Positions 3,001 through 9,000 of a DNA stretch of 64,000 nt are shown here, in pieces; within the stretch, counting starts at the first letter, position 1, and each line of letters begins with the position of its first letter. Position numbers: made by a program. The stretch comes from Podarcis gaigeae (taxonomy: Eukaryota), in assembly GCA_964106915.2 (NCBI GenBank), contig OZ066919.1; one strand, given 5' to 3'.

Positions 3001-6000
3001 GCCAGACCATTGGTTCATTCTAGACAAGTGCAATGACTATCCGTTGCCCTCTGGGGTTTCTTGCCCCAACAATACCTAAAGATGGCATAGATAGAACTTG
3101 GGACCTTATGCATGCAAAGCGGATGCTCTACCACCGAGATTAAAATTTTCCGAATTTTTTATTTTTAAAGGAAATCTTTCAATTAGACCTTGGGACTTGT
3201 AACCATAAAACACGAGTCATAAAACAGCAAATGAATAGAGTACAGAAAATTAACCCTTTTTATTGATGCATTGCAATTGTTCTACATTTTTACCATATTA
3301 TGTAGAAAATACTTAAAATACAAGCTACTTTGTAAAACCAAAGACAAACATTGAATCCAAAGATAAACTATGTTTTCACAATGGACCATTTTCCCATATA
3401 GTTAGTATTAAATTTTTTTAAATATCTGTATTTCCTTTTGTTAAAATGATTTTTACATTACCCCCTAAGTACATTGGCAATACAAACATAGATCAGTAAT
3501 TGTCAGAAACTACCTTTATCTAGCGGATTGTAAAAAGGAAGAGCACAACCAGAAAAAATTTAAACTCTACACAGTAAACTAGCATATCAAATACATTTAA
3601 TAAAGTAGGAATTCCATTGCAATACCAAGGATTCAAGCAGAAATACTAACATTACATATAATGCACTGCTACATGTAGTGAGTTAGATAATAGTTCAAGC
3701 TGAATCTGAAATCACACATTATATAAAGTTTAGCAACAAACAACTATGTCAACATGCGGCACCATTCATAAGTTAAAAATGAAAATGAAAAAGCAGGGCT
3801 GTGCCAATCCAATCACCTAGAAGCAATTTAATTTCATGTATTTTTTAAATTAAAAAACTGAGTCAGAGGTATAGTGCTGCACTGGTCAACTATGTGCAAG
3901 CAGTAAAGCTCTGAAGTTGGTTTTGCAGTGGAGTATCAATAGCTGTGAGATGAGAGTTCAGCTGTCAGGGACAATACTAAGGAATTGGTTTCACTCATCT
4001 CAAGAGTGACTAGGTGAAACATTTTATCTTATTATAAAAAAGGCAAATTACTGTGCAACCCCCACCACCGGCTGCAGAACTGAACAGTTGCACACATGCA
4101 AGTCCCACAGATTTCAACAGGACTTGCACACATTCAGCTGCGTGCAAAAATGCAGCCCCAGCATTTAAGTCTTTAATTTTACGTAAAACGTTGCTTTTGC
4201 TAAAATAGTATGTTCACATATAGACTGCACAGCTATTGCCTTACATCTCTCCATCCGCAGGGAGGCAAGCTGGATATTGCAATGGGAGAAAAGGATAGGG
4301 CCTAAGGCCTAATTCTCACAAACAGCAAATGCAGTTCAGTGTGTGAATTGAGACTAACAAGAAGCCAATGTTGTGTCATACATCATTTTCTGCATGCTTT
4401 TGGGGGGGGGGCGCGGAGAGATTATAATTAGCTTGACACTTTTTATGTGCAGGGAATTATGCTTTTGGGGGTGTGGAGGTGGTATGCCAGAACATCCCAT
4501 CATCTGCACCCCCACCTACAGCCCAAAGTAAGAGGAATCCAGGCACAGGGTTTGCAACCACATCTGCTCTTTGTGAAAACAAGGCCTTGGTCGGGCAGAA
4601 CCATTAGAACAGGCCTGACTAGTTTCAGGGCAACAAAATGTTTATATATATATATATATATCTGGGACAATTCATCAAGGTTAGTCTAGACCAGGCATAG
4701 GCAAACTCCGGCCCTCCAGATGTTTGGGGCTCCAACTCTCATCATCCCTCATCACTGGTCCTGTTAGTTAGGGATGATGAGAGTTGCGAGTCCCAAACTT
4801 CTGGAGGGCCAGAGTTTGCCTATGCCAGTCTAGACTGACCTTGATGAATTGCCTCAGATATTAAAAAAAAACATTTTGTTGCTCTGAAACTAGCCAGAGC
4901 AACAAAATGACATTAAATGGTTCTTATCTCTTAAAAGGACAATTAAAGCCCATCAGAGTTACGGGATAAGAAGCAGTTCTAAAGATTGTCTAGACCAGGG
5001 ATAGGCAAACTCCGGCCCTCCGGATGTTTGGGACTACAATGCCCATCATCCCTGACCACTGGTCCTCTTAGCTAGGGATGATGAGAGTTGGAGTCCCAAA
5101 CATCTAGAGGGCCAGAGTTTGCCTATGCCATTAACTCTGATGGGCTTTAATTGTCCTTTTAAGTCAGGGGTAGGGGACCTGTGGGTTTCTTACATGCAAA
5201 ATGTTTAAAGCAGGAGGGGGGGGGAGGCCTGTAGCAACTGGGTTTTAAAAACACTCAAGTAGTAGATTTCCAATGTAAAGATGGCTTTCAGTTAAAATTT
5301 TAGGGAAACTTTCAGACCAGCATTTTGAATTTACTTCCCTAAAATTTTAACTGAAATCCTTCTTTACATTAATCCACTGCTTGAGTGTTTTTAAAACCCA
5401 ATTTCAAAAACACTTCAGGATTTCTGCGAGGTGCATTATGATTTTATCTCTTTGGGTGGAAAGGCACAACTCTGCCCTTAAAGGTCTTGCCATAGAATTT
5501 GGGGAGGAAAAATTAAAAATGGGTGTGGCACTAAGCAAGAAACCATTTTGATAATGTTACACAGCAACAGAAAGTGTTGTTGACACCAATGATGTAAAAA
5601 AAAAGAAATGCCTTTTTACTCTTTTCCTCTGTATTGATATCTTTTCCTCTGTATTAATCTTGGAAAAGATTAAAAAGAACTGAGAGCAAAAGTACAGTAA
5701 AAGGTTCACAGCTAGTTACGGTGTTAACCAAACACTCTCCTATTGCCAAAAACAACAGATTCCTCATTATAAAGGAAAACTGTAAGGCTTGTGGTCCACA
5801 AACTTAATGCCACTTTCCCCAGTAGGACTAAGATCACTGAAGGAAGGAAATGCACACCATCAGCACGCCAGTTTAAGTGTGCTTTTGTACCACACTTGAT
5901 TTTCTGGGTTCTGTCAAACTACTGTTTCATTTCATCACTGCCATTATCTAGAGAATGATCTTGTCCAAATGGAGAATAAACTGCCCTGGAGAGTGGTATT

Positions 6001-9000
6001 GCTACAGCAATAAAAGGCTTTGACAGCCTTGAAAACCCAGTTCGTATTCTGTCTAGTCTGGATCATAAGGCTAGTTAGTTTTGGTACATTACAAAGAATT
6101 CAGAAATGAAGAGCCCATTTCTGAAAAATGCATGATAGCATGCTATAGCCTTGCCCAAATGTGAACAGGGCAATAACCCTGACCCTACTGTTTCAGAAAT
6201 GGGCTCTTCATTTCTGAATTCTTTGTAATGTACTAAAACTAACTAGCCTTATGATCCAGATTAGACAGAATACAAACTGGGGTTTCAAGGCTGTCAAAGC
6301 CTTTTATTGCTGTAGCAATACCACTCTCCAAGGCAGTTTATTCTCCATTTCATCCTCTATACAACGACAGTGGTGAAGTGAACAGTAGTTTGACAGAATC
6401 CAGAAAATGAAGTGTGGTACAAAAGCTCACTTAAACTGGCCTGCTGATGGTGTGCATTTCCTTACAATACCAAGTGCTACAGCTCTCAAATCTTCCCCAA
6501 ACGCCACATTACTAGTGGTGTTAAATAAAACTTCAGAATATTATGTGCTTTCCAGCAGGCTCTCTTTGGTATAAAAGTTCTTAACACCAAACTAGTAATA
6601 TTTTACAAGAAACAATCTGCTACACACAAGGGGGAGAAATATGTCACAATATAATTTATGGGAAAGTAATTGCACATGCTTAATTACCTCTGCAACATCA
6701 GATAAATTTCCCAATGCATTCCCAGCACAATACCCTATTAAAGATGCATCGACAGCTAACAGTATAGGTAATATCGGGGGTGGGGTGAGGAAAACTTTAC
6801 TCCAAATAAAATACCTAGGACACAAACATTCGTGCATCACCATAGTTTATAAAGCCATGGTTTCTCAGATTCATGTATATGTAGATTTCCTCAATTGCTC
6901 AATATAGTTGTAAAGCCATGGTTTCTGATTCCCTGGTTTACTGACCGATAGTCAGCCATGACTTGTCCATTCAGACATAACACCAACCCATGGTTAAGAA
7001 ACAAAGTTTGGCAAAATGAATGGACAAGTTATGGTGATGCATGAATTGACAATGACTTAGTCACTGCTCTGCCTCCTTAAGACTGCTGAGCAATTGAGGA
7101 GGAAACCTACATACATGAATCTGAGTGCACAGAGGACAGAAAATAAACGCAGACAAGCAGCTCTGTACCATCAGTTTTAAACTATGGTTAGCAGAAACCA
7201 TGTTTGGCTTTGATGTCTGAACTGAGGCTATCAATTTCAGTTGGAATGTGTTTAGCACACCCTTAAATTTCTAGCTGAAATCAACAGACGTGAAATACTT
7301 AGCTCTGGCCAGATCATTTATGTTGGCATTGAAACTTAAAGCAACCTTTTTTTACCACTTATGTATCCTCAGTTGGATACGCTCAATGAATTGCTTCAGT
7401 TTGACGGAGAGCGGAGGGGCTTGCTGGTCCATCATAAGGCAAGCTCACTGTAAACTCTAGTCACACTACATAATCATTTAAGGCACTACATTATTTGGGG
7501 GTGGGGGTGGGGGACACACCAGTCACACATACCTGTGCAAAACAAATCAGAAGGTATCCTTGTCTCTCATGCGGCTCCATTTTTCTCTCTCTCAGTGCTA
7601 CAGTGATGAGCTCTAGACAATTGCATTATTTCACATACATTCCAACATGTATCAACTCATTTTGGTTTAAATACAAAGGAATAGATAAATTTCATCCCCA
7701 GAAACATTTAAGAGTTAGACGAACACGAAGTACAGAGTTCAAGTATAACCACTACACATTTTGATTACAAAGACAGAACATTTGGGATTAGCAGGAAATT
7801 TTGCTTGTTATATTTTGTTCTAATCAATATGTACATATTTCATTTTCTGTAAAATATTAAAACACCACCATTACAAAACTTCTAAAATAGTTTTAAATTC
7901 AGTAATAAACCTTTAAAATCTGCAATTTATGTGTCATGTTTTTGCAATTCCTACATGCACTTACTGTATACAAGTCTTAATAAGAGCGCTTTAAAGTTTT
8001 CTGCCAAGAAGATCCCAGAGGGATATGCAGGAGTATAAAAAATTGTACATATCAGTAGGTTGATGTTTTGGTGAATTTTGGATTCCTCAGATAACTAGAT
8101 CAGGAAATGAAAGATATGAAGGGAAAGAGACCCTTGCATTTCTGGGAAAGGAATCCAGCTCCAAATGTTATTTTAAAAAATCAAACTGAAAGGGTGTAAA
8201 TGTCTGAGCTCCTGATGAAGTCTATGGAAATGAACAGGTGATGCGTTATCTCCTATTCAATTCAGCAAGTCCCAATCAGAAGAAGTTCCCAGTGGCTCCT
8301 GCCCTCAAGTCATAATGCAAACCTATGCATTTTCAGCACAGAACAAGAGCTTTCCGGCAAAACAGTCAAAAACCATAGTCTAGGCTGTGATCACACATAC
8401 AGCAGAAAGTAAATTCATACTTTCTGCAGTTTTTTTTTTTAAATTCAACTTTATTTTAGCGATTCATACATTAAAATTTTAAAACAAGAGGGAAAAGATT
8501 TATGGTGTAAATGGAGACTGATAATAAAAATTGCTACACTAGCTTTAAACAAAAGACAATTAAAACCAAGAAACTGGGGAGCGAAATATATAGATATATA
8601 TATATACATATATAAAATATACACACAGAGAAATGAGAAGGTAACTGCTTTTGCAGAATTCAGCTATTGCCTATCAAGAATGTGAATTACAAAATTAACT
8701 TTAAAATACTAACTCAAGTTTATAAATCTGCCCTAGCAACCTAGAGTTAAATGTGCATTTTTAGTGGCAATATGGATTTGTGCAAGCTGCTAAAATAATT
8801 TAAACAAGTACTAAGGTAAGTTTAAGAGTTAAAAAAATCCAGCCTTTTCAGAAAGTCCTTGGTTTCCTTTCCCCATTTGATTAGGATAACAATAGCTTTA
8901 AATAAACGGGGGTTCAGGCCTTTGATGTTGTTTTTTTAAAGCATCCATGAAAGTTTAACTGTAAAATCTGAATGTGAATATGACTCAAAAGGTTCTGCCC

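What the first reader, a model, noticed from the sequence alone, without database searches (positions are those of the whole stretch)
4619..6463. Cluster of fold-back inverted repeats forming a double-stranded RNA domain in the HIPK1 3'UTR
Seen: four consecutive hairpins in 1.85 kb (4619-4893, 4930-5163, 5239-5400, 5844-6463), plus small ones at 4872-4909 and 6957-7033, lying between two ordinary UTR-like blocks. At least two use sequence I cannot assign to a repeat family. Established: long 3'UTR duplexes are substrates for ADAR, Staufen and Dicer, and can cause nuclear retention, as inverted Alus do in primates. Inference: a lineage-specific, Alu-independent dsRNA module on a conserved kinase mRNA. 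This is the best candidate for an undescribed system in the window.
Basis: partly seen in the sequence, partly recalled or inferred. Interest (0 to 1): 0.75.

Follow-up and report, generated by a model that had tools for sequence, protein, structure and literature searches.

The report
Transposon fold-backs downstream of HIPK1 stop
The four hairpins are real and would form long double-stranded RNA if transcribed, but they look like ordinary fold-back DNA-transposon relics of the kind scattered through this lizard-type genome, not a new regulatory system.

Summary
Four near whole-length palindromes lie at 4615-4897, 4930-5163, 5236-5403 and 5844-6463. Their minus-strand RNA folding z-scores run from -14 to -36. 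A fifth, decayed fold-back lies at about 6828-7221.

They sit 2.8-4.6 kb downstream of the stop codon of a HIPK1-like gene on the minus strand.

- **Hairpins 1 and 2:** each has a 136-bp element at its centre. One has a perfect 8-bp target-site duplication, GTCTAGAC. Three more copies lie in HIPK1 introns. Its size, long arms and NTCTAGAN target match the hAT-N1-type non-autonomous transposons described in Anolis (PMC3014272).
- **Other fold-backs:** a second long-armed fold-back family has two copies elsewhere in the window.
- **Hairpins 3 and 4:** these, and the outer arms of 1 and 2, are single-copy in this window and have no clear target-site duplication, so they remain unassigned.
- **Selection:** arm mismatches show no bias toward G·U pairs on the transcribed strand.

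I could not test whether the mature 3'UTR includes the cluster, because no RNA data or other vertebrate genome was available. The best distal poly(A) signal, at 3259, lies beyond the cluster. This is most likely neutral transposon accumulation that forms dsRNA passively. Interest is low.

The parts
4615..4897 (.). Hairpin 1: a 283-bp layered palindrome. The outer arms (4615-4643 / 4869-4897) flank a (TA)n / A-run. Middle arms follow, then a central hAT-type MITE.
4692..4827 (.). 136-bp hAT-type MITE core of hairpin 1. The left end reads CAGGCATAGGCAAACT. It is flanked by a perfect 8-bp target-site duplication GTCTAGAC at 4684-4691 and 4828-4835.
   Evidence: TSD consensus NTCTAGAN from PMC3014272 Table 1
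4872..4909 (.). Small terminal hairpin. 4895-4909 is a third, direct copy (14/15) of left-arm bases 4626-4640. It overlaps the end of the right arm at a 3-nt CAG.
   Evidence: shuffle p about 0.002
4930..5163 (.). Hairpin 2: perfect 32-nt outer arms (4930-4961 / 5132-5163) round a second copy of the MITE core (4996-5131). That core is 89% identical to the H1 core. GTCTAGAC is present on its left side only.
5236..5403 (.). Hairpin 3: a 168-bp whole-length palindrome. It has no second copy in the window and no clear target-site duplication. A partial third direct copy lies at 5402-5414.
5844..6463 (.). Hairpin 4: a 620-bp fold-back with arms about 280 nt long, 95-97% complementary, and a 64-nt loop. 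It has no second copy in the window and no clear target-site duplication. In RNA sense it carries two AATAAA hexamers (plus-strand positions 6303 and 6337) inside one arm.
6828..7221 (.). Decayed fifth fold-back.
9228..9734 (-). Last coding exon of the HIPK1-like gene, ending ...[15 protein letters not shown] followed by the stop codon. The 3'UTR runs downward from 9227.
3259..3264 (-). Best candidate distal poly(A) signal: AATAAA in RNA sense with a U/GU-rich stretch downstream. It lies beyond the cluster. A tRNA-like SINE head follows at about 3135-3090.
   Evidence: reading of the sequence; inference
8450..8455 (-). Proximal AATAAA. If used, the mRNA would end before reaching the cluster.
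26666..26801 (.). Intronic sister copy of the 136-bp MITE family. Its terminal repeat CAGTGTTTCCCAACCT matches the published hAT-N3_AC terminal repeat at 15/16.
35004..35291 (.). Two adjacent intronic copies of the same family (35004-35139 and 35148-35283). The second is flanked by GTCTAGAG on both sides and sits in the first copy's flanking target site.
56874..57649 (.). A different 776-bp long-armed fold-back. A second, left-truncated copy lies at about 59180-59617. This shows that long fold-backs are repeat families in this genome.

Best explanation
The cluster is a nest of non-autonomous, fold-back DNA-transposon relics (MITE-like elements whose inverted repeats cover almost the whole element). 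They have accumulated in a weakly constrained stretch 2.8-4.6 kb downstream of the HIPK1 stop codon, probably inside the long 3'UTR isoform.

Shown:
- Hairpins 1 and 2 each carry a 136-bp hAT-type element.
- In hairpin 1 this element inserted into a palindromic TCTAGA target and duplicated it.
- Sister copies lie in HIPK1 introns.

Inferred:
- Hairpins 3 and 4 and the outer layers of 1 and 2 are members of other fold-back families, or DNA captured by such elements. These families would be too rare to recur within 64 kb.
- The palindromic target preference, together with the duplication of that target at each insertion, favours nested and adjacent insertions and so produces a local cluster.

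If the long UTR isoform reads through, each element folds on itself into 25-67-bp perfect helices. For hairpin 4 these sit within a duplex of roughly 280 bp. The mRNA would then passively become a substrate for dsRNA-binding proteins, as inverted Alus do in primates. I see no evidence that this has been selected.
For: - **Core size and target-site duplication.** The H1 core is 136 bp and is flanked by GTCTAGAC on both sides. An intronic copy is flanked by GTCTAGAG on both sides. All five copies in the window are 136 bp.
- **Match to a published family.** hAT-N1_AC is 135 bp with a 57-bp terminal repeat and more than 1000 copies. Anolis hAT target-site duplications follow NTCTAGAN or NYYTARRN with terminal motif YARNG (PMC3014272, Table 1). 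The intronic copies match the hAT-N3_AC terminal repeat at 15/16.
- **Shared ancestry of the copies.** The H1 and H2 cores are 89% identical to each other and 77-84% identical to the intronic copies. An alignment of all six rows shows about 65 invariant columns.
- **Rfam.** All five copies hit the mir-5408 model with real sequence similarity but below threshold: 37-60 bits against a gathering score of 90.
- **Fold-back architecture is known.** TcMar-N1_AC is 489 bp with a 203-bp terminal repeat. TcMar-N10_AC is 664 bp with a 311-bp terminal repeat (PMC3014272, Table 2).
- **Another fold-back family recurs here.** A 776-bp long-armed fold-back has two copies in the window.
- **Composite elements are expected.** The PMC3014272 abstract says 57 of 67 families are non-autonomous and structurally diverse through recombination and capture of extraneous DNA.
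- **No strand-specific selection.** Arm mismatches in H1-H4 give 17 G·U pairs in the minus-strand RNA, 14 in the plus-strand RNA, and 23 of transversion type.
- **Not an assembly artefact.** The arms are 85-97% complementary rather than identical.
Against: - H3, H4 and the outer arms of H1 and H2 have no second copy in the window.
- They have no convincing TA or 8-bp target-site duplication (reading).
- By eye, their ends match none of the terminal repeats printed in PMC3014272. I did not compute this for the Tc1/mariner and Chapaev lists.
- H1 and H3 carry a partial third direct copy of their own outer arm next to one end. Simple cut-and-paste insertion does not predict this.
- H2's outer arms are 32/32 complementary while its core arms are only 86%, so its layers differ in age.
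- Four of 11 fold-backs within 1.85 kb is mildly more than chance.
- The H1/H2 core terminal repeat matches published hAT terminal repeats only at 11-12 of 16 positions.
Confidence: 0.7

Rival explanations
1. A selected, lineage-specific dsRNA regulatory module on the HIPK1 mRNA. The hairpins are retained because ADAR, Staufen, Dicer or nuclear-retention factors act on them to tune HIPK1 output.
For: - Very stable folds that stay independent in the full 2.7-kb context, with perfect helices up to 67 bp.
- The location between the stop codon and the best distal poly(A) signal.
- Mild clustering.
- The core family resembles an Rfam miRNA-precursor family.
Against: - The same element family and other fold-backs sit in introns and upstream of the gene.
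- There is no excess of G·U over A·C mismatches on the transcribed strand: 17 against 14, with 23 transversion-type mismatches as well.
- Rfam scores are below the family threshold, and both strands score alike.
- No RNA, editing or small-RNA data could be consulted.
Confidence: 0.1
2. Locally generated palindromes. Hairpins 3 and 4 and the outer arms of hairpin 1 arose in place by fold-back (snap-back) template switching during replication or break repair. Existing hairpin-forming MITEs may have seeded the process, copying host flank in inverted orientation.
For: - No target-site duplication and no second copy in the window for H3, H4 and the outer arms.
- H1 has the order arm, inverted arm, then a partial direct third copy (4626-4640 against 4895-4909, 14/15) joined at a 3-nt CAG overlap.
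- H3 shows the same order (5243-5255 against 5402-5414, 12/13).
- Each third copy scores p about 0.002 against shuffles, in 20 tests over 10 elements.
Against: - Subterminal repeats in both orientations are common in transposon ends and could mimic a third copy.
- A third apparent case (59.2 kb) dissolved once the true family boundary was seen.
- Single copies per 64 kb are expected for ordinary repeat families.
- H4 shows no third copy.
- The arm of H4 on its own is only weakly enriched in small hairpins: z -2.2, with 3 of 200 shuffles as good.
Confidence: 0.2
3. The hairpins lie outside most mature HIPK1 mRNA. Transcripts end at the proximal signal (8450) or at the AATAAA hexamers brought in by hairpin 4, so no dsRNA domain exists on the message.
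For: - In RNA sense there is AATAAA at 8450 with a GU-rich stretch downstream, two AATAAA hexamers inside H4 (6337, 6303), and ATTAAA inside H2 (5146).
Against: - The block 3260-3850 reads like the end of a long vertebrate 3'UTR and ends in a good AATAAA plus U/GU-rich site at 3259 (my reading only).
- The hexamers inside H4 would be buried in a duplex.
Confidence: 0.35
4. Assembly artefact: chimeric fold-back reads.
For: Palindromes are a known artefact class. This is recalled, not tested here.
Against: - The arms differ by 3-15% and carry indels.
- The central MITE has its own target-site duplication.
- The elements are internal to a gap-free window.
Confidence: 0.03

Closest known systems
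hAT-N1_AC-type non-autonomous hAT elements of Anolis carolinensis (Novick et al. 2011, PMC3014272)
   Same: - Length: 136 bp here against 135 bp.
- Arms of about 57 nt cover nearly the whole element.
- 8-bp target-site duplication of the NTCTAGAN type.
- CAG-type termini.
- Multiple dispersed copies.
   Different: - The terminal sequence is not identical. The intronic subfamily matches hAT-N1_AC at 15-16 of 20 positions and hAT-N3_AC at 15/16.
- The H1/H2 subfamily (CAGGCATAGGCAAACT) matches any published hAT terminal repeat at only 11-12 of 16 positions.
- I could not compare full consensus sequences, because supplements and Repbase were not available.
Long-terminal-repeat fold-back Tc1/mariner non-autonomous families (TcMar-N1_AC, 489 bp with a 203-bp terminal repeat; TcMar-N10_AC, 664 bp with a 311-bp terminal repeat; PMC3014272 Table 2)
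   Same: The architecture of hairpins 3 and 4 and of the 56.9-kb element: nearly the whole element is inverted repeat, and the sizes are similar.
   Different: - No clean TA target-site duplication at H3 or H4.
- By eye, their termini do not match the printed terminal repeats.
Inverted Alu pairs in primate 3'UTRs, which are ADAR substrates (PMC526178, abstract seen in a search listing). Their roles in nuclear retention and as MDA5 ligands are recalled.
   Same: Transposon-derived intramolecular duplexes of up to roughly 280 bp in a putative 3'UTR. They would bind the same dsRNA-binding proteins.
   Different: - Each duplex here is a single fold-back element, not two separate retroelement copies.
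- They derive from DNA transposons.
- The arms are more nearly perfect (95-97% in H4).
- No editing or expression evidence is available.
MITE-derived miRNA precursors: hsa-mir-548 from Made1 (PMC1784062, abstract seen in a search listing) and Rfam mir-5408. The anole origin of mir-5408 is recalled, not checked.
   Same: - A palindromic MITE that folds into a precursor-like hairpin.
- Real sequence similarity to the mir-5408 consensus.
   Different: - Scores are 37-60 bits against a gathering score of 90.
- Both strands score alike.
- No small-RNA evidence.

Membership tests
hAT non-autonomous (MITE) elements | 8-bp target-site duplication, NTCTAGAN / NYYTARRN in Anolis | tested here: met
   - H1 core: GTCTAGAC on both sides.
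- Copy at 35148-35283: GTCTAGAG on both sides.
- H2 core: present on the left only.
- Copy at 26666: GGATTACG against GATTAGAG, unclear.
(consensus)
hAT non-autonomous (MITE) elements | Terminal motif YARNG and terminal repeat similar to known hAT terminal repeats | tested here: met
   - CAGTG termini; 15/16 match to the hAT-N3_AC terminal repeat for the three intronic copies.
- H2 left end CAGGG fits the motif.
- H1 left end CAGGC misses it at the fifth base.
- The H1/H2 subfamily matches published terminal repeats at only 11-12 of 16 positions.
hAT non-autonomous (MITE) elements | Dispersed multi-copy family | tested here: met
   Five copies in 64 kb: two in the cluster and three in introns. 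The genome-wide count could not be tested.
hAT non-autonomous (MITE) elements | Mobilised by a hAT transposase | not testable with these tools
   No genome of this species and no vertebrate collection was available.
Tc1/mariner-type long-terminal-repeat fold-backs (as a home for H3 and H4) | TA target-site duplication | tested here: not met
   - H4 flanks are GA and TA.
- H3 flanks are CT/AA, or GC/TC if the palindrome is extended.
(reading)
Tc1/mariner-type long-terminal-repeat fold-backs (as a home for H3 and H4) | Other copies with the same termini | not testable with these tools
   None in the window. At one copy per 64 kb this says little.
3'UTR dsRNA elements of the inverted-Alu kind | Long intramolecular duplex in the RNA | tested here: met
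   Predicted only.
3'UTR dsRNA elements of the inverted-Alu kind | Present in the mature mRNA; clustered A-to-I editing; effect on localisation or translation | not testable with these tools
   No RNA data. Only poly(A) hexamer positions are available.
Rfam mir-5408 miRNA precursor family | Score at or above the curated gathering threshold | tested here: not met
   37.4-59.8 bits against 90 for all five copies, on both strands.

The most novel reading that the evidence does not exclude
The fold-backs do not insert by plain cut-and-paste. A hairpin-forming element, once joined to one target strand, primes DNA synthesis from its own snapped-back 3' end. This copies host flank in inverted orientation and then switches back at a microhomology. 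The result is the arm / inverted-arm / partial-third-copy order seen at H1 and H3. Palindromes would thus grow into the host sequence and build an ever longer dsRNA-forming domain inside the long 3'UTR of a conserved kinase gene, which the cell must then edit or tolerate.
Probability: 0.12. Interest if true: 0.5.

Novelty: new member of a known kind. Interest (0 to 1): 0.22.

Why it matters
**If transcribed.** A 6-kb HIPK1 UTR carrying about 1.3 kb of near-perfect hairpin would be a strong natural ADAR, PKR or MDA5 substrate in a non-mammal. It would be a handy test case for how squamates handle self dsRNA made by DNA transposons rather than by SINE pairs.

**As it stands.** It mainly shows that hairpin clusters in lizard-type genomes should be screened against fold-back MITE families before being read as RNA modules.

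**Side observation.** A palindromic hAT target is duplicated at each insertion, and in one case a second copy sits in the first copy's duplicated target. This offers a simple, testable reason for local nests of such elements.

Tried and rejected
- **Rfam at gathering threshold**: nothing in the region.
- **Rfam at E-value threshold**: H3 and H4 hit only plant or insect long-hairpin miRNA models, at a quarter or less of their thresholds (for example MIR841 at 52 of 200 bits, MIR847 at 45 of 184). I took these as generic hairpin matches.
- **ARAGORN**: found no tRNA.
- **Bacterial promoter/terminator scan**: irrelevant for a vertebrate and not used.
- **Tandem Repeats Finder on 1-10000**: nothing.
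- **Middle layers of H1 and H2.** I tested whether they are homologous. Support is weak: 72 of 2000 shuffles reach the score on the left side and 349 of 2000 on the right. I therefore do not claim that the two hairpins are copies of one composite element.
- **'Palindromes within palindromes' idea.** The arm of H4 alone gives z -2.2. A control arm at 56.9 kb gives z -1.3. This was too weak and I dropped it.
- **Third 'third-copy' case at 59.2 kb**: withdrawn. Self-BLAST showed that this element extends to about 59617 and is a truncated copy of the 56.9-kb family.
- **Literature searches.**
  - 'mir-5408': 0 papers.
  - Three short strings from the MITE: 0 papers.
  - A-to-I / Metazoa / dsRNA / Anolis: 0 papers.
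  - A-to-I / lizard / inverted repeats / UTR / double-stranded RNA, at least 4 of 5 terms: 163 papers. None of the 12 listed contains 'lizard'.
- **Genome contigs.** This collection holds only bacteria and archaea, so I did not scan it.
- **Protein search**: the unnamed hits were neither fetched nor used.

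
Full report
**Setting.** The window has no N. I do not take it for human. It carries squamate-type repeats: four copies of a roughly 300-370-bp repeat that I take to be a SINE (from recall, not tested), and hAT MITEs matching Anolis families.

On the minus strand, a large exon at 37552-38628 matches HIPK3 and HIPK2 kinase-domain structures at E = 1e-119. An open frame at 9228-9734 ends ...[15 protein letters not shown] followed by a stop. 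Its best named relative is a HIPK1 fragment, at 86% identity over 43% of the query. The other hits are unnamed and were not used.

I searched the exons one at a time. I neither built nor searched a joined coding sequence. The stop codon is at 9228-9230, so the finding lies 2.8-4.6 kb into whatever follows the stop on the minus strand.

| Element | Window coordinates | Length (nt) | MFE (kcal/mol) | z-score |
|---|---|---|---|---|
| H1 | 4615-4897 | 283 | -196 | -25 |
| H2 | 4930-5163 | 234 | -146 | -17 |
| H3 | 5236-5403 | 168 | -86 | -14 |
| H4 | 5844-6463 | 620 | -466 | -36 |

These are whole-element palindromes, not short terminal repeats round a unique interior. All folds are of the minus-strand RNA.

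Folded together as a 2701-nt RNA, each element pairs only with itself. Paired bases are 244 of 283, 190 of 234, 142 of 168 and 570 of 620. The longest uninterrupted helices are 67, 43, 32, 27, 26 and 24 bp.

The small hairpin at 6956-7034 is the core of a fifth, decayed fold-back spanning about 6828-7221 (z -6.4).

**What hairpins 1 and 2 are.** Their centres share a 150-bp stretch: 4677-4827 against 4982-5130, 89% identical. This stretch also matches 26666-26801, 35004-35139 and 35148-35283 in HIPK1 introns.

All five copies are 136 bp. The H1 copy (4692-4827) is flanked by GTCTAGAC on both sides. The copy at 35148-35283 is flanked by GTCTAGAG on both sides. That copy sits exactly in the flanking target site of its neighbour at 35004-35139.

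I read Novick et al. 2011 (PMC3014272): the abstract, the hAT and Tc1/mariner sections, and Tables 1 and 2. They report the following for Anolis hAT families:
- 8-bp target-site duplications of consensus NTCTAGAN or NYYTARRN;
- the terminal motif YARNG;
- a family, hAT-N1_AC, of 135 bp with a 57-bp terminal repeat and more than 1000 copies.

The intronic copies match the hAT-N3_AC terminal repeat at 15/16. The H1/H2 subfamily (CAGGCATAGGCAAACT) matches published hAT terminal repeats only at 11-12 of 16 positions. I therefore file the core as a hAT-type MITE of the hAT-N1 architecture, in a subfamily that is not identical to any printed one.

All five copies also hit the Rfam mir-5408 model with visible sequence similarity. 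The scores are 37-60 bits against a gathering score of 90, and both strands score alike. They are relatives of something annotated as a miRNA precursor, not members of that family.

**The layers round the cores.** In H1 the MITE sits in the TCTAGA centre of a further palindrome (4662-4683 / 4836-4857). That palindrome sits in a (TA)n tract at the centre of an outermost pair of 29-nt arms.

In H2 the outer arms are 32/32 complementary while the core arms are 86%. The right-hand target-site duplication is missing. H2's layers therefore differ in age.

H2's right core arm is closer to H1's arms (93-95%) than to its own left arm (83%). This suggests exchange between the two neighbours.

Whether the middle layers of H1 and H2 are homologous is uncertain. 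In shuffle tests, 72 of 2000 reach the score on the left and 349 of 2000 on the right.

The PMC3014272 abstract says non-autonomous families in Anolis show extraordinary structural diversity through recombination and capture of extraneous DNA. That fits such composites.

**Hairpins 3 and 4.** Neither has another copy in the window. Neither has a convincing TA or 8-bp duplication (my reading). By eye, neither matches a printed terminal repeat. I did not compute that comparison for the Tc1/mariner and Chapaev lists. I could not see the full consensus sequences, which sit in supplements or Repbase.

Their architecture is nevertheless a known one:
- TcMar-N1_AC is 489 bp with a 203-bp terminal repeat.
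- TcMar-N10_AC is 664 bp with a 311-bp terminal repeat.

A different 776-bp long-armed fold-back at 56874-57649 has a second, truncated copy at about 59180-59617. Long fold-backs are therefore demonstrably repeat families in this genome. A family of a few thousand copies would rarely recur within 64 kb, so absence from the window is weak evidence.

**An unexplained detail.** H1 and H3 each carry a partial third copy of the outer part of their left arm. It lies directly after the right arm, in direct orientation:
- H1: 4626-4640 against 4895-4909, 14/15 identical, overlapping the arm end at CAG.
- H3: 5243-5255 against 5402-5414, 12/13 identical.

Each scores p about 0.002 against shuffles. That is 2 of 10 elements examined, in 20 tests. 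A third apparent case at 59.2 kb was withdrawn.

Two explanations are open. One is subterminal repeats of a transposon end. The other is snap-back template switching that copied host flank. I cannot choose between them here.

**Is there selection for RNA structure?** Among arm mismatches in H1-H4, 17 would be G·U in the minus-strand (mRNA-sense) RNA, 14 would be G·U in the plus-strand RNA, and 23 are of transversion type. There is no bias toward keeping pairs in the transcript. Power is low.

**Is it in the UTR?** In RNA sense, AATAAA occurs at plus-strand positions 8450, 6337, 6303, 3259, 3158, 2966 and 1991. ATTAAA occurs at 5146, 4172, 3827, 3596 and 2781. The hexamers at 6337, 6303 and 5146 are inside the hairpins.

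The block 3260-3850 reads like the end of a long vertebrate 3'UTR. It closes with AATAAA followed by a U/GU-rich stretch, and then by a tRNA-like SINE head. This is my reading, not a test.

From the stop codon to 3259 is 5969 nt, or about 4.3-4.7 kb without the fold-backs. My unverified recollection is that mammalian HIPK1 has a multi-kb UTR of about that size. So the cluster is probably inside a long isoform, but the proximal signal at 8450 could yield mRNAs that lack it.

No RNA data and no vertebrate genome were available. This point, along with conservation across squamates, stayed unchecked.

**Clustering.** Four of the 11 fold-backs with arms of 30 nt or more lie within 1.85 kb. Simulation gives p about 0.01-0.025. 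H1 and H2 may not be independent, which would weaken this further.

A simple inferred cause is that hAT elements prefer a palindromic target and duplicate it on insertion. This creates fresh targets next to, and inside, earlier palindromes. The 35-kb pair shows this directly.

**Verdict.** The structures are real. They are ordinary in kind: a nest of fold-back DNA-transposon relics, probably within a long 3'UTR, that would form dsRNA passively. It is not a new system. The searches I ran found nothing in print on this locus or on lizard UTR hairpins. The class itself is well known: transposon-derived UTR duplexes as ADAR substrates, and MITE-derived hairpins (PMC526178 and PMC1784062, abstracts seen in search listings only).

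Noticed in passing
window 1119-1980: A GC-rich (about 60%) element of roughly 860 bp. Its 29-nt terminal inverted repeats begin CCGTATTTTTCGC, and TA flanks both ends, so it looks like a Tc1/mariner-type non-autonomous transposon. Inside are 70-100-bp internal repeats and a 62-bp perfect-centre palindrome at 1828-1889.
   Followed up: partly
window 35004-35291: Two 136-bp hAT MITEs lie head to tail. The second is inserted exactly in the 8-bp flanking target (GTCTAGAG) of the first and duplicates it again. This is a direct example of re-use of the preferred palindromic target.
   Followed up: partly
window 4626-4640 / 4895-4909 and 5243-5255 / 5402-5414: A partial third, direct copy of the outer left arm lies next to the right end of hairpins 1 and 3. 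Each forms a small terminal hairpin. Plain cut-and-paste insertion does not explain this.
   Followed up: partly
window 56874-57649 and about 59180-59617: Two copies of a long-armed fold-back family upstream of the HIPK1 CpG island. The first has about 300 bp of non-palindromic interior. The second lacks the outer 106 bp or so of its left arm.
   Followed up: partly
window 14475-14832, 33875-34240, 39690-40008, 49137-49447: Four copies of a 300-370-bp dispersed repeat, 78-88% identical to each other. It is probably a SINE.
   Followed up: no
window 61944-62015 and 48906-48977 (+): Rfam calls two tRNA matches (47.9 and 30.4 bits; gathering score 29), but ARAGORN finds no tRNA in the window. They may be tRNA-derived repeat heads or pseudogenes.
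   Followed up: no
window 4694-4749 and 5074-5129: The left core arm of hairpin 1 is 95% complementary to the right core arm of hairpin 2. That is better than either hairpin's own core pairing (92% and 86%). H2's right arm shares derived bases with both H1 arms. This suggests conversion or recombination between the neighbours.
   Followed up: partly
window 24703-24884: A tandem array with a unit of about 45 bp, 94-98% identical between copies.
   Followed up: no
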